This document shows positions 4,880 to 29,065 of a stretch of DNA of 64,000 nucleotides, in pieces. The notes beneath the pieces were generated by a model, which was not told the origin of the DNA, ran no database searches, and saw only the letters and a list, made by a program, of their open reading frames with translations. Every line of letters starts with the position of its first letter. Positions within the stretch are counted from its first letter, which is position 1. The stretch lies in sequence record OK272490.1. One strand, 5' to 3'. The stretch is from Escherichia phage JLBYU32. Position numbers and translations under genes: made by a program.

Positions 4880-5355
4880 GAGAAGAACTTATGAACAATA
4901 TCATTACGGTAGCACTGGACGATACGGCAAACAAATCTGAAGTAGTTCGTAAAATGATTCAAGGCAACTTTGAAGGTAAAATTTTCCGTGCTGTTAATGT
5001 AAAAGCTGATGGTAGCATTCGTGAATACCGTGCACTGTTGAACGTTAAGAAGCACGTAAAAGGTGTTGGTTCAACGACTGCACACAAAGAAAACCTGATG
5101 ACTATCTATGATATGGGTAAGGCTTCAGAGTTAGGTGCTGAAGGTATCGTTAAAGAAGGTGCTCCGTATCGCTCTTTCAATCTGGAAACTACCCTTATGC
5201 TTTCCTTTACAAGTGGTTCCAAAACAATCACTTATCTCTTTACTGATGCTGCAACGGTATCTGCTATTAAGGATAGCACTGTCAAAGCTGGCGTAGTTGC
5301 TGCTGCAAAAGCTTCTTCGATGGCTGCAAATATCCTTGCTAAAGTCCTCGGTTAA
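4876..5355 (+). CDS. hypothetical protein
   Basis: ORF with overlapping start/stop (ATGA) with upstream gene; followed by terminator. Confidence 0.5.
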   Translation: MREELMNNIITVALDDTANKSEVVRKMIQGNFEGKIFRAVNVKADGSIREYRALLNVKKHVKGVGSTTAHKENLMTIYDMGKASELGAEGIVKEGAPYRSFNLETTLMLSFTSGSKTITYLFTDAATVSAIKDSTVKAGVVAAAKASSMAANILAKVLG

Positions 5356-8690: not shown

Positions 8691-8984
8691 ATGGCTATTA
8701 TCAAAAACGTTGTAATTACTGCAAAAACTCGTGATGACGCTCGCGTTATGGCTAAAAAGTTATGCGGGAAAGTGGTTGACAACGGAAAACAATCTGCTGT
8801 AAGGTGGGGCGTGAAGGCTGATAAACAGTTGAAGTTAAAAAATTCACCGATAAACCTTTTTACATGTGTAAACACTATCGGGAAGACAAATGTATACACG
8901 AAAAAGGCATACATTAGACGCGTAGCATTAACATCCCCCATTCGTACAATGAGAAGTTATGCAAAGCTGAAAATTAACAAATAA
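8691..8984 (+). CDS. hypothetical small basic protein
   Basis: ORF after cassette with GGAGAATCTGAAAATG start context. Confidence 0.55.
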   Translation: MAIIKNVVITAKTRDDARVMAKKLCGKVVDNGKQSAVRWGVKADKQLKLKNSPINLFTCVNTIGKTNVYTKKAYIRRVALTSPIRTMRSYAKLKINK

Positions 8985-9069
8985 AGTACTTTACATGGGG
9001 CTTAAAAGTTGATATCTTAAGCCCCAGATAAAGAGCTTTACCACTCAATCCTAAACTGGAGATTCAAAA
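8984..9069 (+). repeat. intergenic cassette type A
   Basis: TAAAGTACTTTACATGGGGCTTAAAAGTTGATATCTTAAGCCCCAGATAAAGAGCTTTAC. Confidence 0.75.
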
Positions 9070-9582
9070 ATGAAAACTGTAGACGCTACTTTTGAAGTTG
9101 TAAAAGAAAAATTCACCATTATCTATGAAGCGGTAAATTGCTTTGAAGCAAGCCATAATCTTGATAATTGGAAGTTTACAGATGACCATCAAGGCGGTGT
9201 GACTATTAAAAACCCTAACTGTCAGCGTAACGATTTTAAATATGCAATTCCTTTAAATTATAGCCTTAAGCAGCTTTCTAGTGACTATGCAAAACAAGGC
9301 CGGGAAAACCCATCAAAAGAGGCTTATATCAGCTTACAGGAAGAAATAGAAAGAGATTTAGAGGCTTCAGAGTACAACCTTGCCGCGAAAGTTGTGGATG
9401 CAAACGGTAACACGGTTTTAGAAAGTTTTTATCTTGGTTATGCTTTCGATTGGTGCTATCGTGACGGCGATGATTTAGAGGATAGACTAAAAGAAGAGGT
9501 GAGCGATTCAGACGCAGAAACTGAAGTATTAGAACGTTTGGAATCGTTGAAAGACTCAGTGATGAATATCTTTAAGAACTAA
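9070..9582 (+). CDS. hypothetical protein with acidic C-terminus
   Basis: conserved GGAGATTCAAAAATG start module; D/E-rich C-terminal third. Confidence 0.55.
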   Translation: MKTVDATFEVVKEKFTIIYEAVNCFEASHNLDNWKFTDDHQGGVTIKNPNCQRNDFKYAIPLNYSLKQLSSDYAKQGRENPSKEAYISLQEEIERDLEASEYNLAAKVVDANGNTVLESFYLGYAFDWCYRDGDDLEDRLKEEVSDSDAETEVLERLESLKDSVMNIFKN

Positions 9583-9591
9583 ATAGATTTC

Positions 9592-9674
9592 TTTACACGG
9601 GGCTAACAAGCTGATATGATAGCCCCAGATAAAGAGATTTATCAAATAAAGCCCTTAAACTAGGAGATTCTAAA
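9592..9674 (+). repeat. intergenic cassette type A (variant)
   Basis: TTTACACGGGGCTAACAAGCTGATATGATAGCCCCAGATAAAGAG ... AAACTAGGAGATTCTAAAATG. Confidence 0.7.
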
Positions 9675-9971
9675 ATGAAATTATCGAATAAAGTTCGTGA
9701 AAATCTGAGCAAATTACTCAACAAAATTGATTTCATTGAAACATCAAGGAATAGCCATGATGTTATGGAATGGTTACACGGCAAAATAAAAGGTCGTCGT
9801 GTAGTGATTTGCTTATGGAATAGTTGCAGGGAGTATAAAAAACCTGTATTGCAAGTAAATATTTATGATGATACTTTTAAAAGTCCTGTAAAGTCTAAAA
9901 GTGATTTATTAGAATCCTATGAGATAACTTTAAATGGCAAAGTGTCACGTAAAGAGGAAACACCATGTTAA
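9675..9971 (+). CDS. hypothetical small protein
   Basis: ORF following cassette. Confidence 0.55.
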   Translation: MKLSNKVRENLSKLLNKIDFIETSRNSHDVMEWLHGKIKGRRVVICLWNSCREYKKPVLQVNIYDDTFKSPVKSKSDLLESYEITLNGKVSRKEETPC

Positions 9972-10297
9972 TGACTGGTATCACTGCAATCATTGCCATT
10001 TTCGCGCTATATAAGGCATATAAAGCCTATAATCTAGCAAATAAGGCAATCACACAGCAGGTTAGCAATAACCTTGTAGAAAGCTTTCTAGGGCGCCTCA
10101 GTGATGAGCAAATAAAGCGGCTAGAGATGAGCTTCAGATATAAAGCGAAAACCTATCAGATAAGTGACATCTTCAAAGATGATTTTCAGTTAGTCGATGA
10201 TTATAATTCACTGATAAATGCTTTAAATATCAGTGACTTGAAAGACTATTACGCTGTAATTGTTCAAGAATTGAGCAAACGAAAACAAAACAGTTGA
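9965..10297 (+). CDS. hypothetical protein with N-terminal hydrophobic helix
   Basis: ITAIIAIFALY hydrophobic segment; stop TGA lies inside the -35 of the next cassette promoter. Confidence 0.5.
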   Translation: MLMTGITAIIAIFALYKAYKAYNLANKAITQQVSNNLVESFLGRLSDEQIKRLEMSFRYKAKTYQISDIFKDDFQLVDDYNSLINALNISDLKDYYAVIVQELSKRKQNS

Positions 10298-16652: not shown

Positions 16653-16837
16653 TCAAGGTCAACAAGTCTTTGCAGGACTTTCCCTCTAGGTGTTACACCT
16701 TTTAAATCTGCATCGTAGCAACGGTAAAAGTCACCTTCAGCGTGTTTACCATAGCATTTTCTGATATTCTGACTCCTACGATATTGTTCTAATAGGGACA
16801 GTTTGTAGTAATCTTCAACTGTAGTTAGTTTTTTCAT
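16619..16837 (-). CDS. hypothetical protein
   Basis: ORF. Confidence 0.4.
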   Translation of the reverse strand: MKKLTTVEDYYKLSLLEQYRRSQNIRKCYGKHAEGDFYRCYDADLKGVTPRGKVLQRLVDLEWNKRLRGVGK

Positions 16838-16909
16838 TTTTCACCACGCATCTTCTTAAGAAGCTAAAAAGGGAACTACCTCTCGATAGCTCCCATTATA
16901 GTCAATATT

Positions 16910-17500
16910 TTATACTCGGCAAGAGTACTTCTTAGGCATTAATGCACTGCGTTTGCTACTTTCTTCACTCAATAGTGCGATAAAGTCATCACCTTTACCT
17001 TTCCACGGGCTGAATGAAGGGATATGCTCACGAATAGCCTCAATAACCGTCTTAAGTGCTGTGTTCTTCATCCACCAATCAGAATCTGCTGATGCAACCA
17101 CGTAGTATCCACCGTCATCAGTTAAAATTGGCTCTGAAATACATGGTGAAATCAAAGTGGTGATGATTGAACCGTTGTTCATGTAGTATGTGCGCTTCAT
17201 AACCTTTTCAAGAAGCTTGTGAAGGTCACCAAACAGTGTTACAAGTTCTTTGTGGTCAATGTCTTTTTCTAGGTTTGCTCGATACTTCAATAGTGCAGCA
17301 TCAACCTCTCTGTCATTAAACTTGAAATATTGAACTTCATCAACAAGGCAAACACTTATGTTGTTAACATTCATAGTCAGCTTGCAAACTTTTGCAGGAG
17401 AGTTGATGCTTGGTTGAAAAAGTGCAACACACCCTTCAATATTTCCAAAGTGTTGTACAAGTGTTACTTGTGGAATGATATCCTGTTGCTCTTCGGACAT
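16910..17500 (-). CDS. hypothetical protein
   Basis: ORF. Confidence 0.5.
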   Translation of the reverse strand: MSEEQQDIIPQVTLVQHFGNIEGCVALFQPSINSPAKVCKLTMNVNNISVCLVDEVQYFKFNDREVDAALLKYRANLEKDIDHKELVTLFGDLHKLLEKVMKRTYYMNNGSIITTLISPCISEPILTDDGGYYVVASADSDWWMKNTALKTVIEAIREHIPSFSPWKGKGDDFIALLSEESSKRSALMPKKYSCRV

Positions 17501-20476: not shown

Positions 20477-21067
20477 TTAAGCTTTGGTCTTAAGTAGGTT
20501 CTTAAGTTTTTTAAGATTCATACTCTCATCAAACTTAAAACCAAATCCATTGACATAATCAATGAACTCGGATTTCTTACTAAGTGACAATGCGTAACTC
20601 ATATCAAAGTTCTTACTTGTTTCTGCGTCTGGACTAGAGTTCACATCAAATGAAATTTCTGTAGGCTCTTGCTTACTTTTTCTCATATTATCAATTAACA
20701 AACATGTATAGTTTGCTGGATAGAAGTTTACACTACCATCAACGTAGCTGTACTTATTATTGTGGATAAGGTTGGAAAAGACCTTAAGGAATGTTTCTGA
20801 GTCGTGGCAAACAAGTTTGAATTGGCTGCTCTCTCCAAGCGCAACTAATGAATACGGACTTTCACTATCAAAGTCATAATTTGGATTAGATGCCGTCACT
20901 GTTACACGCATCAAGTTATTAGCAATAGTCTTCTGTTTAAAAGAATTTTGAACATAGTGAAGACCTCTATCACACTGATTGACTAGCTCTTTAAGTAGGT
21001 CATTTGCATATGGTGAATTAATTGATACAGAGCCATCACTATTGTAATTAAAACTTACTGTTAACAT
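20477..21067 (-). CDS. hypothetical protein
   Basis: ORF. Confidence 0.5.
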   Translation of the reverse strand: MLTVSFNYNSDGSVSINSPYANDLLKELVNQCDRGLHYVQNSFKQKTIANNLMRVTVTASNPNYDFDSESPYSLVALGESSQFKLVCHDSETFLKVFSNLIHNNKYSYVDGSVNFYPANYTCLLIDNMRKSKQEPTEISFDVNSSPDAETSKNFDMSYALSLSKKSEFIDYVNGFGFKFDESMNLKKLKNLLKTKA

Positions 21068-21294
21068 TTTTCAGTTCTCCTGCGATTTATAATTTTGCTG
21101 CAATAGAGAAACGAAGTAAACTCACTGGAAGAAACCACTAAGTGTTGTTCACTAGATTGAGCCATTGCCCTGAAATACATTCCAGTCAAAGCATCATAGT
21201 GACTATTCTTTCCAATTGAGGTTATATAGCCATGACTCTTTGCAGTTTGATATAAATCTATAATATCTGCGATTTCTAATTGGGAACTACACAT
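21061..21294 (-). CDS. hypothetical protein
   Basis: ORF. Confidence 0.4.
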   Translation of the reverse strand: MCSSQLEIADIIDLYQTAKSHGYITSIGKNSHYDALTGMYFRAMAQSSEQHLVVSSSEFTSFLYCSKIINRRRTEKC

Positions 21295-21458
21295 AGATAA
21301 TCCTCTTGTCTTCTGTAATTTTGAAAGAACAGGTACAGACCAATTTCAGAGGATGAATAGTAGAGTAACTCTACCCTTTTTGATTCCTTACAGTGATTGG
21401 TATTTTTACCTTTCTTCGGGTTGTTTGATTTTCTCATTAAGTCTCCTTTGTAGAACAA
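21276..21458 (-). CDS. hypothetical small basic protein
   Basis: ORF; first gene of - strand block. Confidence 0.35.
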   Translation of the reverse strand: MFYKGDLMRKSNNPKKGKNTNHCKESKRVELLYYSSSEIGLYLFFQNYRRQEDYLCVVPN

Positions 21459-21536
21459 GGCAGACCTACAGCTTTAAGTAAGATGGTACAGTAATCCATA
21501 CAACAAGTCAAGAACTATTGCAAGTTAAAAAAGTTG

Positions 21537-21577
21537 TTGACAAAGTACTTGACAAGGTGTAGGCTTCTAAATACTTA
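21537..21577 (+). promoter_or_regulatory. candidate tandem promoters (two TTGACA boxes) in divergent intergenic region
   Basis: TTGACA at 21537 and 21549; -10 candidates weak. Confidence 0.3.
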
Positions 21578-21686
21578 GAAGATAACTTAAAAGGTTCCTC
21601 TAAAAAGGCTATTTAAACAGATATCTTTCTGGATATCTATCTTTTATCTTAAAAGCCTTTTAAGAGGTCTTATAAGAGGCATACCA

Positions 21687-22058
21687 ATGAAAAACAGAAC
21701 AAACAAAGGCCAGTTTAAAAAAGGCCAGTCTGGAAACCCATCTGGAAGACCTAAAGGCTCTCGTAACAAAAGTTCACTCGTAAAAGCTCAACTGACCATT
21801 GATAATTCTGCTGAGTTTGCTGCAAAGTTGTTTGAAGCGATTGTTACAAGGGATGCTGCTAAGCTTGCAGAGTTCGGTTTGACGACTGACGATGTAAACC
21901 TGAAGTCGATGATGGAAGCTGGTAAAACTATCATGACCCACTCAGCAGGTGAGATGAAAGCGATTGCAGCAGACACTAAGAAGACCCCTGATAATGGTGG
22001 TCAAACCCAGACAGATAACAAACCAACGTTTTCTGCTGTAGCGACTCTCAAAAAATAA
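21687..22058 (+). CDS. hypothetical protein with N-terminal AT-hook-like GNPSGRPKG motif
   Basis: KGQSGNPSGRPKGSRNK basic motif. Confidence 0.5.
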   Translation: MKNRTNKGQFKKGQSGNPSGRPKGSRNKSSLVKAQLTIDNSAEFAAKLFEAIVTRDAAKLAEFGLTTDDVNLKSMMEAGKTIMTHSAGEMKAIAADTKKTPDNGGQTQTDNKPTFSAVATLKK

Positions 22059-22138
22059 TTTTAAAAGGTGTTGACAGACTCTACAAAGTTGCTCTAAAGT
22101 CTGTCACATCAAACAACAATGAGAGAAGAGAGTAAAAT

Positions 22139-23554
22139 ATGAGCGAGTTATTTAAACATGCGCACCTTCATGCAGGTCGAACTGAAAATGGTGCTGTAAA
22201 CCATACTTCATCAATGTCTTCTCTGGTAGACTTTTACAAAGCCGCTGGCTCAAGCCGTAGTAATGTAGAAATCTTACCAGACCTGTTCTACAAAGCTTTG
22301 CGTGAGGATGTTGATGTTGCAGTTCGTATTTTGCTTCATATGCGAGATGTACGAGAAGGTATGGGTGAGCGTAAAGCTTTCCGAACTGTTTTACTTCAAG
22401 CGATTGAAGATAAAGTTTTAGAGCCTACGCAGGTTCTTCGCATTATGGGTAAGATTGCAGAACTTGGTCGTTTTGATGACTTCAAAATCTTCGCAGGTAC
22501 TCGTTTTGAGACAGATGCCTTCAAACATTTAGAAGCAGCATTACTAGACCCTGCAACAGCAGGTTTAGCAGCTAAGTGGTTGCCACGAGTAAAACCACGC
22601 CACAAACAGTTTGTAAAACGTTTCTGCAAGTTTGCAAACTTAAGTGAGAAGGAGTATCGCACACTGTTGTCTGCACTGTCTGATACGGTTGAGCAAAAAA
22701 TCTCTGCTAATGAGTTTGGTAAGATTGACTACAGCAAGATTCCTTCACTCGCTGCTGCACGTTACCAAAAACTCTTTAACCGTAAAGATGGGGAACGTTA
22801 CAAAGCTTACATTGAGTCCCTCTCAAAAGGTGAGGCTAAGATTAACGCTGGCGCTGTTTACCCATACGATGTGATTAAATCTATCAAGTATGGTAATGCA
22901 GATGTTGCTAATGAGCAGTGGAAAGCACTACCAAACTGGATGGCAGAAGGTGAAAACATCCTGTGTATGACTGATGTTTCAAGCTCAATGTCTTGGGTGA
23001 ATCTTGGTTCAATCACTGCCCTTGATATTGGTGTATCACTTGCATTGTATGTAGCAGAACGCAATACAGGTTGCTTTAAAAATGAGTTAATGGTGTACTC
23101 AACAGACCCTCATTTCATCGAACTGAGTGGTGATTTACAGACTCGTATGCGTCAAGTAATGAGTCATGTTGAATATGGTTCAACTTACTTACAAGCAGCT
23201 TTTGACCGTATTCTTGAGATAGGTAAAAGAAACAACTTGACTCAGGAAGATATGCCAAGTAAGCTTATCATCTTCTCCGATATGGAGTTCAATCAGGTTG
23301 ATGGTGCTAACGGTCGTACAAACTTTGAAGCAATTCAGAGTAAGTACAAAAAAGCTGGATATGAGATGCCACAACTGGTATTCTGGTACTTAGCAAACCG
23401 TAATGGCACTTGCGAAGTATCTGTTAAGGATAACGGTGTAGCAATGGTATCTGGTTTCTCTCCAGCCACTTTAAAAGCTCTGCTTGGTGGTGAGAAGTTT
23501 GACCCAATCAGCGTAATGCTCAAAGCAGTAATGATTGACCGTTACATTTGGTAA
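22139..23554 (+). CDS. vWA-domain protein with MIDAS-like DxSxS motif (Ro60/TROVE- or DUF2828-like architecture)
   Basis: alpha-helical N-terminal half; CMTDVSSSMS MIDAS-like motif and FSDMEF in C-terminal half; 471 aa. Confidence 0.45.
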   Translation: MSELFKHAHLHAGRTENGAVNHTSSMSSLVDFYKAAGSSRSNVEILPDLFYKALREDVDVAVRILLHMRDVREGMGERKAFRTVLLQAIEDKVLEPTQVLRIMGKIAELGRFDDFKIFAGTRFETDAFKHLEAALLDPATAGLAAKWLPRVKPRHKQFVKRFCKFANLSEKEYRTLLSALSDTVEQKISANEFGKIDYSKIPSLAAARYQKLFNRKDGERYKAYIESLSKGEAKINAGAVYPYDVIKSIKYGNADVANEQWKALPNWMAEGENILCMTDVSSSMSWVNLGSITALDIGVSLALYVAERNTGCFKNELMVYSTDPHFIELSGDLQTRMRQVMSHVEYGSTYLQAAFDRILEIGKRNNLTQEDMPSKLIIFSDMEFNQVDGANGRTNFEAIQSKYKKAGYEMPQLVFWYLANRNGTCEVSVKDNGVAMVSGFSPATLKALLGGEKFDPISVMLKAVMIDRYIW

Positions 23555-23572
23555 AAAGTTTCAAAAAGGGTA

Positions 23573-23601
23573 TTGACAATATGTTTGATACCCTTTAATA
23601 T
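23573..23601 (+). promoter_or_regulatory. sigma70-like promoter TTGACA-17-TAATAT overlapped by palindrome GGGTATTGACAATA...ATACCC
   Basis: consensus boxes; inverted repeat spans the -35; upstream of tRNA cluster. Confidence 0.55.
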
Positions 23602-23663
23602 GTTCTACATAGAAACGAAATGAGAGCTTTTCTAAGATACTGAAAAATATTTTAAAAAAGTTC

Positions 23664-23692
23664 TTGACAATCACTAAAAAATAATGTTAAAG
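23664..23692 (+). promoter_or_regulatory. candidate promoter TTGACA with weak -10, just upstream of first tRNA
   Basis: TTGACA at 23664; -10 ambiguous. Confidence 0.3.
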
Positions 23693-23719
23693 TGGTTACA
23701 TAGAGTTTGAAAAGTTTAT

Positions 23720-23796
23720 CTCTGTTTAGCTCAGCTTGGTAGAGCGTTCCGTTTGGGGCGGTAAGGCCGGAGGTTCAAGTCCTCCAACAGAGACCA
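23720..23796 (+). tRNA. tRNA-Pro (anticodon TGG)
   Basis: hand-folded cloverleaf; 7-bp acceptor, T-arm GGAGG-TTCAAGT-CCTCC, CCA encoded. Confidence 0.7.
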
Positions 23797-23803
23797 AATT
23801 AAT

Positions 23804-23881
23804 GTTCCAGTAGACAAAACGGTAAAGTCACCACTCTTTCAAAGTGGATATTTGAGGGCTCAAATCCCTTCTGGAACGCCA
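23804..23881 (+). tRNA. tRNA-Glu (anticodon TTC), atypical T-loop CTCAAAT
   Basis: perfect acceptor and anticodon stems; loop CTTTCAA. Confidence 0.7.
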
Positions 23882-23883
23882 GT

Positions 23884-23963
23884 TTTGACAGAAGACCAAT
23901 TACAGCAAGTTTAATCTTATTCATCTGACACGAAATCGGACAAAGAAGAGATTTGGTCTGGTC
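23884..23963 (+). repeat. tRNA spacer element CAGAAGACC..ACAGCAA ... TTGGTCTGG (copy 1)
   Basis: long-range inverted repeat AGACC/GGTCT; recurs at least 4 times between tRNAs. Confidence 0.6.
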
Positions 23964-23972
23964 ATTAAGAAT

Positions 23973-24049
23973 TGCGGGTATAGAGAAAGGGCGTCTCACA
24001 TGTCTCATTAGCATGGTATCGGCAGGTTCGACTCCTGCACCCGCCTCCA
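23973..24049 (+). tRNA. tRNA-Met (anticodon CAT)
   Basis: anticodon loop CTCATTA; T-arm GCAGG-TTCGACT-CCTGC; 1-72 mismatch. Confidence 0.65.
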
Positions 24050-24050
24050 A

Positions 24051-24117
24051 TTTTGCAGAAGACCGTATGCAGCAATAAACTACTTTTTGCGGATAAAAGA
24101 AAAAACACGGTCTGGCA
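24051..24117 (+). repeat. tRNA spacer element (copy 2)
   Basis: TTTTGCAGAAGACCGTATGCAGCAA ... CACGGTCTGGC. Confidence 0.6.
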
Positions 24118-24126
24118 ATGTATTAA

Positions 24127-24203
24127 GGTTAGGAAGCACATAAGGTATGTGCGGTCGCCTGTTAAGCGAATGGCACAGGGTTCGAATCCCTGACTAACCG
24201 CCA
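24127..24203 (+). tRNA. tRNA-Asn (anticodon GTT)
   Basis: loop CTGTTAA; T-arm CAGGG-TTCGAAT-CCCTG. Confidence 0.75.
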
Positions 24204-24212
24204 AATTTAAAT

Positions 24213-24300
24213 GTGTCGTTATCCCGTAGATGGTAGCGGTGGGGACTGTAAATCCCTTGTCATTGAGACTCGGTAGGTTCGACTCCTACACGGCACACCA
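24213..24300 (+). tRNA. tRNA-Tyr (anticodon GTA), long variable arm
   Basis: 88 nt; loop CTGTAAA; T-arm GTAGG-TTCGACT-CCTAC. Confidence 0.7.
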
Positions 24301-24306
24301 AATAAA

Positions 24307-24384
24307 GGTTATGTAGTTTAATCTGGTTAAAATACTCCCCTGTCACGGGAGATGATGAGGGTTCAAATCCCTTCGTAACCGCCA
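24307..24384 (+). tRNA. tRNA-Asp (anticodon GTC)
   Basis: anticodon stem CTCCC/GGGAG, loop CTGTCAC. Confidence 0.75.
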
Positions 24385-24442
24385 ATTTTGAGAGGGCTAT
24401 TTAGCCCCTCCCTTAAAGAGTTCTTACGAGTATTCTTTAAAG

Positions 24443-24514
24443 GAGCAGAAGACCAAATACAGCAAATACGTATGATATTTTCAAGCCAATTTAATTTTGA
24501 AAAAATTTAAAACT
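24443..24514 (+). repeat. tRNA spacer element (copy 3)
   Basis: GCAGAAGACCAAATACAGCAA ... AACTTGGTCTGGC. Confidence 0.6.
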
Positions 24515-24520
24515 TGGTCT

Positions 24521-24668
24521 GGCTCAACAATTTTACAGAAGACCGTTTACAGCAAAACTTAAACAATCTATTTCTCGGTAAAGAAAAGGAGAAGGTTCGA
24601 TTCCTTCACTCGACAGATGTCGAGTTGGTGTAATGGTAGCACTTAAGATGATAAACAACGGTCTGGTA
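24521..24668 (+). repeat. tRNA spacer element (copy 4) containing a tRNA-like fragment
   Basis: TTTTACAGAAGACCGTTTACAGCAA ... AACGGTCTGG. Confidence 0.6.
24585..24640 (+). pseudogene. tRNA-like fragment: T-arm then acceptor-like hairpin then D-arm-like segment (degenerate or permuted tRNA?)
   Basis: GAAGG-TTCGATT-CCTTC then ACTCGAC-AGAT-GTCGAGT then TGGTGTAATGGTAGCAC; no canonical cloverleaf in normal order. Confidence 0.25.
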
Positions 24669-24817
24669 ATCATCTTTGCAGTAGCTTATGTGGCTAATTA
24701 TGTCGTCCCATGAGTGCCGATGAATTTCCTTAGCATGATTCTAGATTAGCTTAATAGGAAATGACTCTACAGACCCTTTAGCAAGGTCTGCGTAGGTTAC
24801 TGCAAAGATGATTTAAT

Positions 24818-24892
24818 GGAAGTGTAGCAGAATGGTGATGCGGCAGACTTTTAATCTGACAGGCGATGGGTTCGAATCCCTCCACTTCTACC
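24818..24892 (+). tRNA. tRNA-Lys (anticodon TTT)
   Basis: loop CTTTTAA; paralog of tRNA at 26051 (shared T-arm GATGGGTTCRAWTCCCTCC). Confidence 0.65.
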
Positions 24893-24897
24893 AAAAT

Positions 24898-24974
24898 GGT
24901 TCAGTCGCAGATAAGGTAATGCAGGGGTCTCATAAGCCCTATGAATGTGGGTTCGATTCCCATCTGAACCTCCA
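24898..24974 (+). tRNA. tRNA with anticodon CAT (Met, or Ile via lysidine)
   Basis: loop CTCATAA; perfect acceptor GGTTCAG/CTGAACC. Confidence 0.7.
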
Positions 24975-24976
24975 AT

Positions 24977-25051
24977 TGTGGGTTAGCATAAATGGTAATG
25001 CAAACGGCTGATAACCGTTAGAAGAGGGTTCGATACCCTCACCTACAACCA
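24977..25051 (+). tRNA. tRNA-Ile (anticodon GAT)
   Basis: anticodon stem AACGG/CCGTT, loop CTGATAA. Confidence 0.75.
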
Positions 25052-25066
25052 ATTTCAATAAAGTTG

Positions 25067-25095
25067 TTGACATTTAGATGTGACCACTTTATAGT
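25067..25095 (+). promoter_or_regulatory. sigma70-like promoter TTGACA-17-TATAGT inside tRNA cluster
   Basis: consensus boxes; followed by ~200 nt of structured non-tRNA sequence before next tRNA. Confidence 0.6.
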
Positions 25096-25299
25096 AACCT
25101 TAGTTTTCGTTGCGTAGCGTCTATTTTGCAAATTTAAAATAAATGCAAACGACAATGTTTTTCTGGCAGTAGCTTGATAGGCTAAACACCAGTGAGGTCT
25201 TCCAATCCCTCATCAAAGAATTTGGCGTACTAGCCCACGGTATGATTAATAAAGTGGGCATCTTTAAGGGCTTTCTAAGAGAGTCTTTAAAGATAATTA

Positions 25300-25381
25300 C
25301 GGGGCGTATCTCAGCTGTCTTCTAAACAGCCGTTAACCGAGTAAGTGGAGTATGCGGGTTCGAGTCCTGCCGCCTCGACCA
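25300..25381 (+). tRNA. atypical tRNA-like gene (possible anticodon TCT, Arg); fold uncertain
   Basis: good acceptor and T-arm (GCGGG-TTCGAGT-CCTGC) but non-canonical D region; hairpin GCTGT-CTTCTAA-ACAGC. Confidence 0.35.
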
Positions 25382-25524
25382 ATTTAGTTAGCAGATTACT
25401 TAGACGACCTAAGCGGGTCTTCCTGTAGGGAGGTGGTCTGTATCTCATGTTTTCCAGAACATGTAAATAATCTGAGAAGGGGCTTTACAGTGTTGAGATA
25501 ATACGGTAAGCTTCGAATTATAGT

Positions 25525-25606
25525 ATGGGACGATGTTAAGACTCTAAGGCATGAGCAACGGCTTCCAACACCGTTTCAAAGGGGTTCAACTCCTCCGTCC
25601 CATGCC
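25525..25606 (+). tRNA. atypical tRNA, possibly tRNA-Trp (anticodon CCA) with oversized D region
   Basis: perfect 7-bp acceptor ATGGGAC/GTCCCAT, T-loop TTCAACT; candidate anticodon loop TTCCAAC. Confidence 0.4.
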
Positions 25607-25620
25607 AAAGTCTTATTAGG

Positions 25621-25708
25621 GGTAGGTAGCGGCTAATGGTAGCCAAACTGTCTTGAAAACAGTTGCCACTGTAGAGATACGGTGAGGGTTCGACTCCTTT
25701 ACTTACCG
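25621..25708 (+). tRNA. tRNA-Ser (anticodon TGA), long variable arm
   Basis: 88 nt; anticodon stem ACTGT/ACAGT loop CTTGAAA; CCA not encoded. Confidence 0.7.
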
Positions 25709-25855
25709 CCTAATAAGATTTAAAGCCAAGCTTCATTCGGATGTTGCTTTGGTATACCGCGTGTATTGTTGTACACACAGATAAAACACCTAGTAGGTGT
25801 CACGGAGAAGAGATAATATCAAGCTCTCCAAAGGTTCTAGTCACCGGATTAAACA

Positions 25856-25880
25856 AGACTATGCAAAGACCTTTTTAGGT
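25856..25880 (+). terminator. hairpin + T-tract inside tRNA cluster spacer
   Basis: AAGACC-TTTTT-AGGTCTT followed by TTTTAGAG. Confidence 0.4.
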
Positions 25881-25966
25881 CTTTTTAGAGGGCTTCTAAG
25901 GTTATTAGTCGCTTGTTGTGGAACCTTGTTGCTCAGGTTCTTAGAAGTTCTCTAAAAAGATTTAAT

Positions 25967-26043
25967 GCACCTATAGCCCAACTGGTGGAGGCAGCAGACT
26001 TAGAATCTGCTCAGTGTGAGTTCGAATCTCTCTAGGTGTACCA
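25967..26043 (+). tRNA. tRNA with anticodon TAG (Leu by anticodon) but class I (short variable loop) shape
   Basis: anticodon stem GCAGA/TCTGC loop CTTAGAA; 77 nt; discriminator A. Confidence 0.6.
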
Positions 26044-26050
26044 AATTAAT

Positions 26051-26126
26051 GCAGGTGTAGCAAAATGGTTATGCGGCTGACTCTTAATCAGTAAGACGAT
26101 GGGTTCAATTCCCTCCACCTGTACCA
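26051..26126 (+). tRNA. tRNA-Lys (anticodon CTT)
   Basis: loop CTCTTAA; paralog of tRNA-Lys(TTT) at 24818. Confidence 0.65.
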
Positions 26127-26132
26127 AACATT

Positions 26133-26208
26133 GGGGTCATAGTTTATATGGTTAAAATTCGAGTTTTGCAAACTTGGGAACTGAGTTCAATTCTCAGTGA
26201 CTCCACCA
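26133..26208 (+). tRNA. tRNA-Ala (anticodon TGC)
   Basis: G3:U70 wobble pair in acceptor stem; loop TTTGCAA; T-arm CTGAG-TTCAATT-CTCAG. Confidence 0.8.
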
Positions 26209-26214
26209 ATTAGT

Positions 26215-26289
26215 GCATCCATAGTTTAAACGGGAAAATTACAGTCTTCCAAACTGAGGTTGAGGGTTCGATTCCCTCTGGATGCTCCA
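26215..26289 (+). tRNA. tRNA-Gly (anticodon TCC)
   Basis: perfect acceptor GCATCCA/TGGATGC; loop CTTCCAA. Confidence 0.75.
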
Positions 26290-26296
26290 AATTAAT

Positions 26297-26372
26297 GCTC
26301 CTATCGTATAATTGGCTATTACGGTTGCCTTGTAAGCAACTTATCAGGGTTCGAATCCTTGTGGGAGCACCA
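26297..26372 (+). tRNA. tRNA-Thr (anticodon TGT)
   Basis: anticodon stem GTTGC/GCAAC loop CTTGTAA. Confidence 0.8.
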
Positions 26373-26467
26373 ATTCAGAGGTCAAGTGAAAGACCGCTTT
26401 GAGTCAACTGAAGACCGTAACAAATTCCACGGAGTTGAGTTAGCGGCACAACTCCAGACCTCTTTCA

Positions 26468-26543
26468 TACTCGCTTAGTTTATATGGTAAAACATCACCC
26501 TTACAAGATGAAGAAAAAGGTTCAAGTCCTTTAGTGAGTACCA
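26468..26543 (+). tRNA. tRNA-Val (anticodon TAC)
   Basis: T-arm AAAGG-TTCAAGT-CCTTT; loop CTTACAA. Confidence 0.65.
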
Positions 26544-26544
26544 T

Positions 26545-26622
26545 GTTCCAGTATCCCAATTGGCAGAGGATGCAAGCTCAAACCTTGTACTAGTGACGGT
26601 TCGAATCCGTCTTGGAACACCA
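26545..26622 (+). tRNA. tRNA with anticodon CAA (Leu by anticodon), class I shape
   Basis: T-arm GACGG-TTCGAAT-CCGTC; loop CTCAAAC; discriminator A. Confidence 0.6.
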
Positions 26623-26627
26623 ATTTT

Positions 26628-26703
26628 GCAGGATTAGTTCAAATGGAAAGAGCAACAGTCTACGAAGCTGTTAATAGGGGTTCGAATCCCTTATCCTGCG
26701 CCA
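26628..26703 (+). tRNA. tRNA-Arg (anticodon ACG)
   Basis: perfect acceptor GCAGGAT/ATCCTGC; loop CTACGAA. Confidence 0.8.
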
Positions 26704-26722
26704 ATTTAAAGAGGCTATTTAG

Positions 26723-27280
26723 ATGAGATATTTGAAGTATGCTTCATGGATTTTCTTAGCTTTGTTAGAGCCATTTGCAGCAATCTTAGCAGTTATCTTA
26801 GCACCTTTTGTAGTTCCATTCTACAGTGAGAAGAAAGGACACTTACCTTTCGGGTTCAGATGGATGGAGACATATGACAACCCAATTGATGGTGATGAAG
26901 GTCACGTTAAAAGATGGGCTAATATTAGATGGATTGGTAAACTAGGTGTCTACATGCAAAGAGTCGGATGGCTCTGGAGAAACAAAGCTTATAACTTCTC
27001 TTACCATGTATTAGGAAGAGATGTAAAAGATGTTACTAAGTGGAAAGGTAATATCAACGTAAGTTCTGACCCCGAAGATAATCAGACAGGTTATCTCCTA
27101 ATGTGGAACAGTAATGCTTGGGGATTATTCGCTTTTATCCCATCAATTAAAATCTTTGGTAAACAATTTTACTGGAGAATTTATATTGGATGGAAACTAA
27201 AAAGTGTTGTCCCAGAAGAAAGAGCATTCTCAAGGGAAAGAGTTATGTTGGCATTCTTTATTCATCCACTGAGAAAGTAA
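26723..27280 (+). CDS. hypothetical membrane-anchored, Trp-rich protein embedded in tRNA cluster
   Basis: AAAGAGG RBS 8 nt upstream of ATG; N-terminal hydrophobic segment. Confidence 0.55.
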   Translation: MRYLKYASWIFLALLEPFAAILAVILAPFVVPFYSEKKGHLPFGFRWMETYDNPIDGDEGHVKRWANIRWIGKLGVYMQRVGWLWRNKAYNFSYHVLGRDVKDVTKWKGNINVSSDPEDNQTGYLLMWNSNAWGLFAFIPSIKIFGKQFYWRIYIGWKLKSVVPEERAFSRERVMLAFFIHPLRK

Positions 27281-27288
27281 AGATTTAA

Positions 27289-27364
27289 AGGGGATTAGTT
27301 TACAAGGTTAAAACCTCGGTCTTTGAAATCGAAGAAGTTGGTTCAATTCCAACATCCCCCGCCA
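27289..27364 (+). tRNA. tRNA-Gln (anticodon TTG)
   Basis: T-arm GTTGG-TTCAATT-CCAAC; loop CTTTGAA. Confidence 0.7.
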
Positions 27365-27366
27365 AT

Positions 27367-27445
27367 GCTCCATTACTCCAATTGGCAGAGAGGCCAGACT
27401 TAAAATCTGTGTTATGTATCGGTTCGAATCCGATATGGAGTACCA
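27367..27445 (+). tRNA. tRNA with anticodon TAA (Leu by anticodon), class I-like shape
   Basis: T-arm ATCGG-TTCGAAT-CCGAT; loop CTTAAAA; discriminator A. Confidence 0.6.
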
Positions 27446-27450
27446 AATTT

Positions 27451-27526
27451 AGCGGTATAGCATAACTGGCAATGCAGCAGCCTCTGAAGCTGTCCTATTA
27501 AGGTTCAAATCCTTATGCCGCTGCCA
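27451..27526 (+). tRNA. tRNA-Gln (anticodon CTG)
   Basis: T-arm TAAGG-TTCAAAT-CCTTA; loop CTCTGAA. Confidence 0.65.
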
Positions 27527-27557
27527 CTTCTAAGGATTCTTGCGAGAGTCCTTAAAT

Positions 27558-27633
27558 GTGGCCTTATCATAAATGGTAATGACCCATGCTGTGAACATGG
27601 TCTATACGGGTTCAAATCCCGTAGGTCACCCCA
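27558..27633 (+). tRNA. tRNA-His (anticodon GTG)
   Basis: anticodon stem CCATG/CATGG loop CTGTGAA; discriminator C. Confidence 0.75.
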
Positions 27634-27639
27634 ATTTAT

Positions 27640-27715
27640 AGTCCAAGTAGCTTATATGGTTAAAGCGCGTGTCTGAAAAACATGAGAAGAGGGTTCGAAT
27701 CCCACTGGACTACCA
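27640..27715 (+). tRNA. tRNA-Phe (anticodon GAA)
   Basis: loop CTGAAAA; T-loop TTCGAAT; acceptor pairing slightly ambiguous. Confidence 0.65.
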
Positions 27716-27731
27716 ATTTCAAAGGTGCTTA

Positions 27732-28466
27732 ATGAAAGAGATGACAGAACAAGGTAAGGAGATTTTTAATCTCTTAAAAACCGGTAGAGGGTTTTCTAAT
27801 CCCCTTATTACTGGTGCAGCAGTTCTCGGTGGAACCGTAGCTGCCTCTACATCACTTGTAAGTTCTATTAGCTCTGTAACAGACCCTACAATGAAGGAGA
27901 AACTTGTTGCTGCTGGACTTACAACAGTCCTTCTAAACAGCTTTACAACAAGCCTTACAAGCACTACAGCGACTACTAAGACCTTAACAGACTATGGTCA
28001 AAAGTCTATTGATGAGTTTTCATCACGTATGCAGGTAGCAAAGGGGTATTCCAATGTTATGGGTGCAGCAGGGGAACAAGTTGGCTGTACACCGTTTAGT
28101 GGTATTATGGGCGTTGCTACAGAATATGGTCAAAAAGCTATTGACACAATTAACAGTGCACTAGATGACGTTAATGATGTATTAAGTGACTTACAAGATG
28201 CTATTGATAAGGGTCTTGATACTGTTTCTGATTTAGCTAATCAGGCTGTTAGCAAGATTAATGAAGGTATCTCGAAGATTACAGCTTATGCAGATGAAGT
28301 TGTGCAGATGATTGAAGAAGAAGCTGCCCTTATTGCAGAGTACCTTAAAACGAATATCAATGGGTTCTTAGCAGGTATCTTACCAGACTGGTTTGATGAT
28401 GCCTGTAAAACTGGTGTAATTGATACTATTGCAACACCAGAAATGAAGAGCGCATTACAGAAGTAA
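27732..28466 (+). CDS. hypothetical Ser/Thr/Ala-rich protein embedded in tRNA cluster
   Basis: start moved to ATG 27732 (track start 27669 is an alternative start inside tRNA-Phe); ends 1 nt before tRNA-Ser. Confidence 0.5.
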   Translation: MKEMTEQGKEIFNLLKTGRGFSNPLITGAAVLGGTVAASTSLVSSISSVTDPTMKEKLVAAGLTTVLLNSFTTSLTSTTATTKTLTDYGQKSIDEFSSRMQVAKGYSNVMGAAGEQVGCTPFSGIMGVATEYGQKAIDTINSALDDVNDVLSDLQDAIDKGLDTVSDLANQAVSKINEGISKITAYADEVVQMIEEEAALIAEYLKTNINGFLAGILPDWFDDACKTGVIDTIATPEMKSALQK

Positions 28467-28467
28467 T

Positions 28468-28560
28468 GGAAGATTAACCCTAAAAGGTAAGGGAGCAGTT
28501 TGCTAAACTGCCAGTAGCTGAGAAATCGGTGTACCAGTTCAAGTCTGGTATCTTCCTCCA
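28468..28560 (+). tRNA. tRNA-Ser (anticodon GCT), long variable arm
   Basis: 93 nt; perfect acceptor GGAAGAT/ATCTTCC; anticodon stem GCAGT/ACTGC loop TTGCTAA. Confidence 0.75.
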
Positions 28561-28564
28561 ATTT

Positions 28565-28640
28565 GAATCCGTGACAGAAATGGCTATGTGCCTGTCTGCA
28601 AAACAGGTTTATAAGGGTTCGAGTCCCTTCGGATTCTCCA
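28565..28640 (+). tRNA. tRNA-Cys (anticodon GCA)
   Basis: perfect acceptor GAATCCG/CGGATTC; anticodon stem CCTGT/ACAGG loop CTGCAAA. Confidence 0.8.
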
Positions 28641-28679
28641 AGTTATTTTACTCTCTCTCTCAATTAAAATAATAATAAT

Positions 28680-28740
28680 GCCCTGCTATAAGTATTCTTC
28701 CTTTCGCTACCGAAGAGTATTTTTAGACAGGGCTTTTTTA
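28680..28740 (+). terminator. long hairpin + T-tract terminator after tRNA cluster
   Basis: GCCCTG ... CAGGGC with internal complementarity followed by TTTTTT. Confidence 0.6.
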
Positions 28741-28804
28741 CAGAGCTATACTTTATAAGAAGACTTATACAGTATGTCTCTGACGTACATTGTGGTTTCT
28801 CCTT

Positions 28805-28830
28805 GACGGTCTCTGTGCCGTCTTTTTTAA
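28805..28830 (+). terminator. hairpin + T-tract
   Basis: GACGG-TCTCTGTG-CCGTC followed by TTTTTT. Confidence 0.5.
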
Positions 28831-28864
28831 GGGGAAACATGGTTAATTATTTGGAGAAAACATA

Positions 28865-29065
28865 ATGAGCGAGACCGTTTATAAAGAACTTTATGAAGCT
28901 AACAAGAAGCTAGAATTTATGCAGAATACTATCATGGCAATTGCAGACAGATTATCTGTAGCAACAGGCATTGATATTAAAGAAGCATCTATGGATGCAC
29001 TTCTTGATGCTGTTGATGCAAAGTTCGAAGTTAAGAAAGAAGAGACTGCTACAGACTCTGAATAA
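28865..29065 (+). CDS. hypothetical small acidic protein upstream of terminase
   Basis: GGAG RBS; first gene of late + strand module. Confidence 0.5.
   Translation: MSETVYKELYEANKKLEFMQNTIMAIADRLSVATGIDIKEASMDALLDAVDAKFEVKKEETATDSE

What the first reader, a model, noticed from the sequence alone, without database searches (positions are those of the whole stretch)
21687..23554. vWA/MIDAS protein with Ro60/DUF2828-like layout, next to an AT-hook protein, immediately upstream of the tRNA cluster
The 471-aa protein has an alpha-helical N-terminal half and a C-terminal region with a MIDAS-like CMTDVSSSMS motif, a layout reminiscent of Ro60/TROVE proteins, which bind tRNA-like Y RNAs usually encoded beside them. 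Here the gene sits directly before a tRNA cluster containing extra structured RNAs, suggesting a phage RNP for RNA quality control or tRNA protection. The upstream gene has a GNPSGRPKG AT-hook-like motif. This homology is recalled by eye and is the least secure call here.
Basis: inference. Interest (0 to 1): 0.6.

Follow-up and report, generated by a model that had tools for sequence, protein, structure and literature searches.

The report
Phage Ro60-like protein with partner RNAs
This Felix O1-like phage encodes a ring-shaped Ro60-like RNA-binding protein already known to block a bacterial defence, and four previously unannotated small RNAs hidden among the neighbouring tRNA genes look like its dedicated RNA partners.

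Summary

The apparently new part is a candidate partner RNA: a 7-bp terminal stem, 2 nt, then NCAGCAA. Four copies lie between the first tRNAs, one carrying a T arm. A strict descriptor finds 4 in the window against 0.04 in shuffles. A covariance model built only from unrelated phages ranks three of them as the window's top hits. Across 155 other loci encoding relatives, model hits are 179 on the gene's strand and 1 opposite, mostly close to the gene, including loci without tRNAs. Rfam and the searched literature lack this RNA.

The neighbouring "AT-hook" protein is a lineage-specific DUF5681 protein. RNA binding, expression and the anti-Ppl mechanism remain inferred.

The parts
21687..22058 (+). 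123-aa DUF5681 protein (the 'AT-hook-like' GNPSGRPKG neighbour). It is a lineage-specific neighbour, not a conserved partner of the Ro-like gene.
   Evidence: ORF. Pfam DUF5681 E 7e-14 with no AT-hook family match. PHROG 4114, function unknown. tblastn finds it only in the 8 Felixounavirus loci and L011, and in none of the other 74 viral loci.
22071..22100 (+). Sigma-70-like promoter match (TTGACA-18-TAAAGT) in the gap before the Ro-like gene.
   Evidence: Consensus scan, 10 of 12 matches. This is a pattern match only; the total number of sites in the region is not above shuffles.
22139..23554 (+). 471-aa Ro60-like protein (DUF2828+DUF7788), ortholog of Bas63 gp130. Alpha-solenoid ring at about residues 1-265 (22139-22933); vWA domain at residues 266-471 (22934-23551).
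22973..22987 (+). MIDAS DxSxS motif (D279, S281, S283). The remaining MIDAS residues are T349 (23183-23185) and D381 (23279-23281).
   Evidence: All five residues are invariant in the 40-sequence alignment A1.
23573..23693 (+). Two tandem sigma-70-like promoter matches (TTGACA-17-TAATAT at 23573-23601; TTGACA-18-TAAAGT at 23664-23693) ahead of tRNA-Pro. They fill the gap between the gene and the array.
   Evidence: Sequence and consensus scan. A 12-bp inverted repeat at 23565-23596 overlaps the first site.
23893..23959 (+). Candidate Y-like RNA unit 1 (AGACCAA-tt-ACAGCAA ... TTGGTCT-G), between tRNA-Glu and tRNA-Met.
   Evidence: Strict descriptor hit. Model R1, built without Felixounavirus sequences, scores 24.8 bits, E 1.3e-3, third-best hit in the window. 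Present in all 9 Felixounavirus loci.
24060..24113 (+). Candidate Y-like RNA unit 2 (AGACCGT-at-GCAGCAA ... ACGGTCT-G), between tRNA-Met and tRNA-Asn.
   Evidence: Descriptor hit. R1 25.8 bits, E 8e-4. Fold z-score -2.4. Conserved in all Felixounavirus loci.
24450..24520 (+). Candidate Y-like RNA unit 3 (AGACCAA-at-ACAGCAA ... TTGGTCT-G), after tRNA-Asp.
   Evidence: Descriptor hit. R1 26.8 bits, E 4e-4, best hit in the window. Conserved in all Felixounavirus loci.
24540..24664 (+). Candidate Y-like RNA unit 4, long form: the same closing stem and ACAGCAA, enclosing a T arm (GAAGGTTCGATTCCTTC), a stem-loop (ACTCGACAGATGTCGAGT) and a D-arm-like hairpin. This is the YrlA-type order.
   Evidence: Descriptor hit. 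MFE -35 kcal/mol, z -3.4, 0 of 200 shuffles fold as well. The T arm aligns with long forms from 15 other loci, with compensatory changes in 4 of 5 pairs. Not reached by the Rfam YrlA model; R1 gives only 12.5 bits because of the long insert.
24665..24817 (+). Further conserved structured RNA of unknown role, just after unit 4. It has a long closing helix and contains a small hairpin AGACC-CUUUAGCAA-GGUCUG that resembles the units. Whether it belongs to the system is uncertain.
   Evidence: MFE -57.1 kcal/mol, z -6.1. Outer helix and inner hairpin are kept in 9 Felixounavirus loci although the interior is replaced; 5 pairs show compensatory changes. No Rfam match.
23720..28640 (+). Array of 25 tRNA genes in which the units are embedded.
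   Evidence: ARAGORN and Rfam tRNA hits.

Best explanation
The gene at 22139-23554 encodes a divergent Ro60-type protein: an alpha-solenoid ring closed by a vWA domain with a complete MIDAS site. It belongs to the DUF2828/DUF7788 family that is widespread in tailed phages. It is the ortholog of Bas63 gp130, an anti-defence factor that neutralises the Ppl system (shown for the ortholog). I propose that, like cellular Ro60, it works as a ribonucleoprotein. Its RNA ligands would be four small RNAs encoded 340-1100 nt downstream, between the first tRNAs of the array. Each has a 7-bp terminal stem followed by NU-NCAGCAA and an A-rich interior. The fourth also carries a tRNA-like module, mirroring the YrlA/YrlB pair of bacterial Ro60. 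Because they lie among tRNAs behind two strong promoter matches, they would be made from the tRNA precursor and cut out by the tRNA-processing enzymes (inferred). The RNAs would gate or tether the ring, for example to a host exoribonuclease such as PNPase, as shown for Deinococcus and Salmonella Rsr and for Thermus phage phiLo Ro60. The conserved MIDAS face would hold a protein partner (inferred). The anti-Ppl activity needs only the protein, so the RNAs probably regulate or redirect it rather than being essential for that activity.
Against: There is no expression or binding data; the RNA-protein link is by association only. gp130 alone protects T7 from Ppl, so the RNAs are dispensable for the one known phenotype. 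Rfam's Y_RNA and YrlA models find nothing in the window even at E<=10. The short units are thermodynamically unremarkable, z -0.9 to -2.4. The protein fails Pfam TROVE, and a PDB profile search gives only E about 1 to Ro60. The covariation count was made on an alignment fitted to the model, and many loci are related to each other. R1 E-values are rough because calibration was shortened. In many loci the units lie in what could be the gene's own 5' or 3' UTR, so a cis-regulatory role is possible there.
Confidence: 0.7

Rival explanations
1. The protein is a stand-alone protein inhibitor. It blocks Ppl, or masks its trigger, by direct protein-protein contact through the MIDAS face. The stem+CAGCAA elements are unrelated to it, for example processing signals or spacers of phage RNA gene arrays.
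For: gp130 expressed alone from a plasmid, or inserted into T7, restores plaquing on Ppl hosts. MIDAS residues are invariant, and MIDAS domains typically bind an acidic residue of a protein ligand (established knowledge; the nearest vWA matches are midasin and NorD MIDAS domains).
Against: The elements follow the gene, not tRNA arrays. They sit 27-36 nt after the stop codon, or directly upstream, in loci with no tRNA within 10 kb. Hits are on the gene's strand in 179 of 180 cases. None occurs in the TROVE-type Bxz1 locus. A full Ro60 ring conserved from Mycobacterium to Listeria to E. coli phages argues for a retained RNA function.
Confidence: 0.15
2. The elements are cis-acting operators in the Ro-like gene's own mRNA, allowing autoregulation through the 5' or 3' UTR, rather than separate Y-like small RNAs.
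For: In many loci the units lie 16-250 nt upstream of the start codon or 27-36 nt after the stop codon, where they would be part of the mRNA.
Against: In the window and all Felixounavirus loci the units are separated from the gene by two promoter matches and by tRNA genes. They occur in tandem sets of 3-4. Some enclose tRNA-like domains, as YrlA does. Either way they would still be binding sites for the protein.
Confidence: 0.1
3. The protein is a chaperone or protector of the phage tRNAs themselves; adjacency to the tRNA array reflects that function.
For: 20 of 75 distant loci have a tRNA within 1 kb of the gene. All 343 tRNA and tmRNA genes in the flanks are on the gene's strand. Listeria phage LMTA-57 adds an RtcB ligase nearby.
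Against: 37 of 75 loci have no tRNA or tmRNA within 10 kb, yet most still carry the units. RtcB was found in only 1 locus. gp130 helps T7, which has no tRNA genes.
Confidence: 0.1
4. It is an ordinary vWA-family protein with no RNA-binding module.
For: No Pfam TROVE match. Sequence-profile hits to Ro60 chains in the PDB are not significant.
Confidence: 0.03

Closest known systems
Bas63 (Escherichia phage JohannRWettstein) gp130, from the PhageMaP preprint PMC11482910
   Same: Ortholog: 471 aa, 96% identical, same position directly upstream of tRNA-Pro. It was reported as structurally Ro60-like and as a transferable counter to the Ppl defence.
   Different: The protein is essentially the same. 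The preprint only guessed that some annotated tRNAs might be Y RNAs. The candidates found here are not annotated tRNAs but unannotated spacers; in Bas63 they lie at L005 16073-16907, and units 3-4 overlap the small minus-strand ORFs bas63_0137 and bas63_0138.
Cellular Ro60/Rsr with Y RNAs (Xenopus/human Ro60; Deinococcus Rsr-Yrn1; Salmonella and M. smegmatis Rsr-YrlA/YrlB)
   Same: HEAT-type ring closed by a MIDAS vWA domain. Several small RNAs are encoded within a few kb on the same strand; one has a tRNA-like T arm/stem-loop/D arm module and others do not.
   Different: About 60-80 residues shorter. No Pfam TROVE match; it is filed as DUF2828/DUF7788. The conserved RNA motif is stem+NU-NCAGCAA rather than GNCGAAN0-1G or GGUCCGA. 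The RNAs are embedded in a tRNA array. The known phenotype is anti-defence.
Thermus phage phiLo Ro60 with Yrl1/Yrl2 (PDB 9KOP, 9L5Y; PMC12135203)
   Different: phiLo Ro60 is a TROVE-domain protein, and its RNAs were found through CGAA motifs. There is no tRNA-array context and no defence-system phenotype.
Cluster L mycobacteriophage 'Ro-like RNA binding protein' (e.g. Whirlwind gp55)
   Same: Same DUF2828+DUF7788 family, 33-34% identical over the full length. Three stem+ACAGCAA units lie directly downstream; the middle one is hit by Rfam YrlA.
   Different: Temperate siphovirus of an actinobacterium. Only one tRNA lies nearby. The units follow the gene directly rather than sitting in a tRNA array.
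Stand-alone MIDAS vWA domains (midasin/Rea1 MIDAS, NorD, integrin I domains)
   Same: The C-terminal half has the vWA fold with DxSxS...T...D.

Membership tests
Pfam DUF2828 / DUF7788 | Match to both profiles above the curated gathering score | tested here: met
   DUF2828 102 bits (cut-off 29); DUF7788 147 bits (cut-off 27.1). The same pair is found in relatives from Mycobacterium, Listeria and metagenomic phages.
Ro60 / TROVE | Match to the Pfam TROVE domain (and to vWA_Ro60) | tested here: not met
   No TROVE or vWA_Ro60 hit at E<=1. A bona fide phage Ro (Bxz1 gp220) gives TROVE 9e-50 and vWA_Ro60 4e-54 in the same test.
Ro60 / TROVE | Remote sequence homology to Ro60 proteins | tested here: inconclusive
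   hhalign of A1 against A2 gives probability 88%, E 3e-6, but covers only residues 235-446 (last ring helix plus vWA). The PDB profile search gives E 0.7-1.5 to Ro60 chains.
Ro60 / TROVE | Architecture: alpha-helical repeat ring closed by a C-terminal vWA domain | tested here: met
Ro60 / TROVE | Complete MIDAS motif in the vWA domain | tested here: met
   D279, S281, S283, T349 and D381 are invariant in 40 sequences.
Ro60 / TROVE | Y RNA gene(s) encoded near the protein gene on the same strand | tested here: inconclusive
   No Rfam Y_RNA or YrlA hit in the window. However, four units of a gene-linked RNA family lie 340-1100 nt downstream, and YrlA-type modules occur in relatives.
Ro60 / TROVE | Binding of Y RNA and of misfolded RNA 3' ends in the central cavity | not testable with these tools
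   Needs EMSA, CLIP or an experimental structure.
YrlA RNA (Rfam RF02553), tested on window unit 4 | Match to the covariance model; 5' GNCGAAN0-1G motif; T arm - stem-loop - D arm enclosed by a terminal stem | tested here: not met
   No hit at E<=10. The motif is ACAGCAA, not GNCGAA. The T arm, stem-loop and D-like hairpin inside a terminal stem are present in the predicted fold. So it works like YrlA but is not a member by the model.
AT-hook (upstream 123-aa protein) | R-G-R-P core flanked by basic residues; match to an AT-hook profile | tested here: not met
   The sequence is S-G-R-P-K-G, with GRP but no RGRP core. Pfam assigns the region to DUF5681 (E 7e-14), with no AT-hook hit at E<=1.
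Anti-Ppl counter-defence proteins (Bas63 gp130 type) | Loss sensitises the phage to Ppl; expression rescues a heterologous phage | not testable with these tools
   Shown for the 96%-identical ortholog only.

The most novel reading that the evidence does not exclude
DUF2828/DUF7788 proteins together with stem+NCAGCAA RNAs form a second, previously unrecognised Ro60/Y-RNA-type ribonucleoprotein lineage. It would be spread across hundreds of phage lineages, from Actinobacteria and Firmicutes to Proteobacteria hosts. In tRNA-rich phages its RNAs would be matured from the tRNA array, and the RNP would manipulate host RNA decay or RNA-sensing immunity, including Ppl.
Probability: 0.5. Interest if true: 0.8.

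Novelty: new variant of a known kind. Interest (0 to 1): 0.72.

Why it matters
Ro60 and its Y RNAs form a conserved but still poorly understood RNA-surveillance particle. In phages only one TROVE-type example has been studied biochemically. Here a far more common phage family, found in 709 of 50,697 phage records, turns out to have the Ro60 fold. It already has a proven anti-defence phenotype, and now has a concrete, testable set of candidate RNA ligands with a defined motif. This makes two open questions directly testable: how gp130 disarms Ppl, whose mechanism is unknown, and what Y-like RNAs do in a virus. It also matters for annotation. The spacers in Felixounavirus tRNA arrays are not empty. 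Small ORFs called on them, such as bas63_0137 and bas63_0138, are probably spurious. Some 'tRNAs' next to these genes in other phages are embedded in such units.

Tried and rejected
- Rfam at permissive thresholds found no Y_RNA, YrlA or other family on the units in the window.
- I first suspected a Y RNA in the 165-nt gap right after the gene. It holds two tandem promoter matches and an inverted repeat instead.
- A single-sequence PDB search gave nothing, and the profile search gave only E about 1. NCBIfam gave no hit.
- The DUF5681 neighbour as a functional partner was rejected because it is lineage-specific.
- RtcB as a conserved neighbour was rejected: it occurs only in the Listeria phage locus. 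A DUF458 neighbour occurs in only 7 loci.
- The MAFFT alignment of all short units (A3) put the 3' strands out of register and was discarded. A length-matched seed (A5) was used instead.
- R1 does not capture long-form units because of the loop insert.
- Supplements of Chen et al. 2014 and three Ro60 reviews were not available.
- The PhageMaP text does not mention genes 129, 137 or 138.
- No formal genome-wide background for tRNA adjacency was computed.

Full report
**Observation.** The window is a Felixounavirus (Felix O1-like myovirus). The region 21000-29000 is 95-96% identical to Escherichia phages LMP34, heid and others, with matches in 406 phage records. The two ORFs exist as described: 21687-22058 (123 aa, GNPSGRPKG) and 22139-23554 (471 aa, CMTDVSSSMS). 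Twenty-five tRNA genes, all on the + strand, follow at 23720-28640, starting 165 nt after the stop codon.

**The protein: family.** Pfam places it in DUF2828 (E 4e-29) plus DUF7788 (E 5e-43), both above gathering score. There is no TROVE hit even at E<=1. PHROGs puts it in phrog_850, 'RNA-binding protein' (E 1e-180).

**The protein: fold.**
- An AlphaFold2 model built from 40 relatives is confident (pLDDT 87.7, pTM 0.88). It is helical to about residue 265 and alpha/beta afterwards.
- In Foldseek against the PDB, the top 11 hits are all Ro60 proteins aligned over the full length: Thermus phage phiLo, Xenopus, human and Deinococcus. Isolated vWA domains follow only at E>5e-3.
- I fetched a true TROVE phage Ro (Bxz1 gp220: TROVE 9e-50, vWA_Ro60 4e-54) and aligned its relatives. 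Profile-profile comparison with the DUF2828 alignment gives 88% probability, E 3e-6, over residues 235-446. This covers the last ring helix (VYPYDV ~ VHPINV) and the whole vWA domain up to VSGFS ~ VSGFD.
- The MIDAS residues D279, S281, S283, T349 and D381 are invariant.

**What is already known.**
- Bas63 (MZ501086) is a Felixounavirus. Its gene bas63_0130 sits in the same place and is 96% identical.
- The PhageMaP preprint reports that gp130 is structurally Ro60-like and that its deletion makes Bas63 sensitive to the Ppl defence (ATPase+PHP). Complementation rescues the deletion.
- gp130 alone, from a plasmid or inserted into T7, restores T7 plaquing on Ppl hosts. The authors speculated that some annotated tRNAs might be Y RNAs.
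- As of May 2026 no mechanism was described for Ppl.
- Cluster L mycobacteriophage relatives (33-34% identical) are annotated 'Ro-like RNA binding protein', and 709 phage records encode a relative.

The protein call is therefore correct but not new.

**Genomic context of relatives.** I fetched 80 viral loci with the family profile.
- Of the 75 non-Felixounavirus loci (38-47% identity), 38 have a tRNA or tmRNA within 10 kb. All 343 such genes are on the gene's strand.
- 17 loci have a tRNA starting within 1 kb downstream and 5 within 1 kb upstream. Several different arrays are involved.
- 37 loci have none, so tRNAs are a frequent but not a constant neighbour.
- The DUF5681 neighbour occurs only in Felixounavirus and the related L011 lineage.

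**The RNA lead.** The window has no Rfam Y_RNA or YrlA hit. The gap after the gene holds two promoter matches.
- Rfam YrlA gave partial hits on the tRNA-like core (model positions 24-84). One lies 140 nt downstream of the Whirlwind Ro-like gene and one 75 nt upstream of the gene in L022.
- Reading those gaps showed three tandem units in each. Every unit has a short closing stem whose 5' strand is followed by (U)ACAGCAA. The middle or last unit encloses the T arm - stem-loop - D arm module.
- The same architecture occurs four times in the window, between the first tRNAs: 23893-23959, 24060-24113, 24450-24520 and 24540-24664. The last has a T arm GAAGGTTCGATTCCTTC, a stem-loop and a D-like hairpin.

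**Tests of the RNA family.**
1. *Motif alone.* In the 75 loci, ACAGCAA within 600 nt of the gene occurs 63 times on the gene strand and 7 times opposite (0.72 against 0.08 per kb). Far from the gene the rates are 0.11 and 0.05 per kb.
2. *Strict descriptor.* The descriptor is a perfect 7-bp stem starting [AT]G[AG], then 2-4 nt, then C[AC]GCAA, with the 3' strand followed by G.
   - In the window it finds 4 hits on + and 0 on -. 300 dinucleotide shuffles give a mean of 0.037 and a maximum of 1.
   - In the 75 loci it finds 85 hits on + and 0 on -, in 57 loci. 60 of these lie within 1 kb of the gene, and they use 46 different stem heptamers.
   - The spacing is fixed (offset 3 in 114 of 116 units). 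The U two bases before the C of CAGCAA is 94% conserved although it was not required.
3. *Covariance model R1.* It was built from 22 short units of non-Felixounavirus loci.
   - Run without filters on the whole window, both strands, its three best hits are units 3, 2 and 1 (26.8, 25.8 and 24.8 bits; E 4e-4 to 1.3e-3). The next hit scores 16.1 bits.
   - Over 1.44 Mb of loci, 109 of 110 hits at E<=1 are on the gene strand.
   - On that alignment, 97.6% of stem cells pair against 62% in shuffles. 259 double-change cells compare with 76 in shuffles. All 7 pairs have compensatory changes, and slid controls stay at or below 0.17. The caveat is that the alignment is fitted to the model.
4. *Independent replicate.* I fetched 80 loci from GTDB genomes, mostly MAGs of Clostridia, Chloroflexi, Proteobacteria, Bacteroidales and others, at 33-42% identity. 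All 70 hits at E<=0.1 are on the gene strand. They fall in 48 loci, mostly 20-700 nt upstream of the gene. The strict descriptor gives 31 on + and 0 on - there.
5. *Long forms.* Aligned long forms share a T arm with compensatory changes in 4 of 5 pairs and an invariant GTTCRA loop.
6. *Distribution in named phages.* All nine Felixounavirus loci, including Bas63, keep the four units. Listeria phage LMTA-57 has three directly upstream of its gene, and Whirlwind has three downstream. TROVE-type Bxz1 has none.

The short units are not thermodynamically special (z -0.9 to -2.4). Unit 4 is (z -3.4). The short units therefore look like protein-binding platforms rather than autonomous folds. Neither Rfam 15 nor the searchable literature describes them.

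**Mechanism.**
- *Shown:* a Ro60 fold with an intact MIDAS; orthology to an anti-Ppl factor that acts alone; a gene-linked, strand-specific, covarying RNA family with YrlA-like long forms; four copies embedded in the tRNA array behind two promoter matches.
- *Inferred:* the RNAs are transcribed with the tRNAs and released by tRNA-processing enzymes. They bind the ring as Y RNAs bind Ro60. They gate it or tether it to a host factor such as PNPase, as in the Deinococcus and Salmonella RYPER complex and the phiLo complex. The MIDAS face binds a protein.

Because gp130 alone rescues T7, the RNAs are not needed for the Ppl phenotype. They more likely regulate the protein or extend its activity.

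**Verdict.** The Ro60-like call is correct but already published for the ortholog. The AT-hook neighbour is irrelevant. The RNP idea gains strong comparative support through a candidate RNA partner family that appears undescribed.

Noticed in passing
window 24665-24817 (+): A 153-nt spacer folds into a very stable structure (-57.1 kcal/mol, z -6.1) with a long closing helix. In 9 Felixounavirus loci the helix and an inner hairpin AGACC..UAGCAA..GGUCUG are kept while the interior is swapped between two versions. There is no Rfam match. In Bas63 it is overlapped by the small minus-strand ORF bas63_0138.
   Followed up: partly
window 25052-25620 (+): The gap holds two tRNA-like sequences that ARAGORN did not call. 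One, at about 25296-25378, corresponds to the tRNA-Arg(AGA) annotated in Bas63 and has a weak tRNA-Sec-like Rfam hit. The other, at about 25528-25612, has T arm GGGGTTCAACTCCTCC and a CCA end. Weak tmRNA-like Rfam hits at 24991-25298 are below threshold. The related phage heid has an HNH endonuclease gene in this gap.
   Followed up: no
L088 (Listeria phage LMTA-57, NC_047871) 1941-2039, 4428-4979, 8808-10019: The tRNA array next to this phage's DUF2828 gene also contains a drum RNA (50 bits, above gathering score) and a ROOL RNA (88.5 bits, E 2e-16). An RtcB 'tRNA-splicing ligase' lies 1.3 kb downstream. The region is a dense cluster of structured RNAs and RNA-repair genes.
   Followed up: partly
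L041, L057, L059, L060, L070 (IMG/VR contigs): Phage-encoded tmRNA genes lie 4-7 kb downstream of the Ro-like gene, on the same strand, in one group of contigs. L030 has a permuted tmRNA 3.3 kb upstream.
   Followed up: no
L040 9758-9853; L044 9734-9833: Two ARAGORN 'tRNA' calls right next to the Ro-like gene, tRNA-Asn with the odd anticodon ATT and a tRNA-Thr, are enclosed by a unit's closing stem and CAGCAA motif. Some annotated phage tRNAs may therefore be Y-like RNAs.
   Followed up: partly
L005 (Bas63) 16749-17023: The annotated minus-strand ORFs bas63_0137 and bas63_0138 overlap units 3-4 and the 153-nt structured RNA on the opposite strand. They are probably not genes.
   Followed up: partly
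window 26723-27280 and 27669-28466 (+): Two protein genes are embedded in the tRNA array: DUF7338 (E 1e-61) and DUF7217 (E 5e-89). The latter resembles tape-measure and coiled-coil segments in PHROGs and is annotated 'putative membrane protein' in phage heid.
   Followed up: no
L022 15696-15922: A group I intron (71.5 bits, above gathering score) lies about 4 kb downstream of the Ro-like gene in this metagenomic phage contig.
   Followed up: no
L086, L033, L083, L040, L030, L074, L075: A DUF458-family protein is encoded near the Ro-like gene in 7 loci; in Vibrio phage ValKK3 it is the gene directly after it. This is a possible secondary association.
   Followed up: partly
window 22071-22100, 23573-23601, 23664-23693 (+): Three intergenic promoter matches share a perfect TTGACA -35 box and a TAAAGT or TAATAT -10 box. 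This may be a phage promoter class driving the Ro-like gene and the RNA array separately.
   Followed up: no
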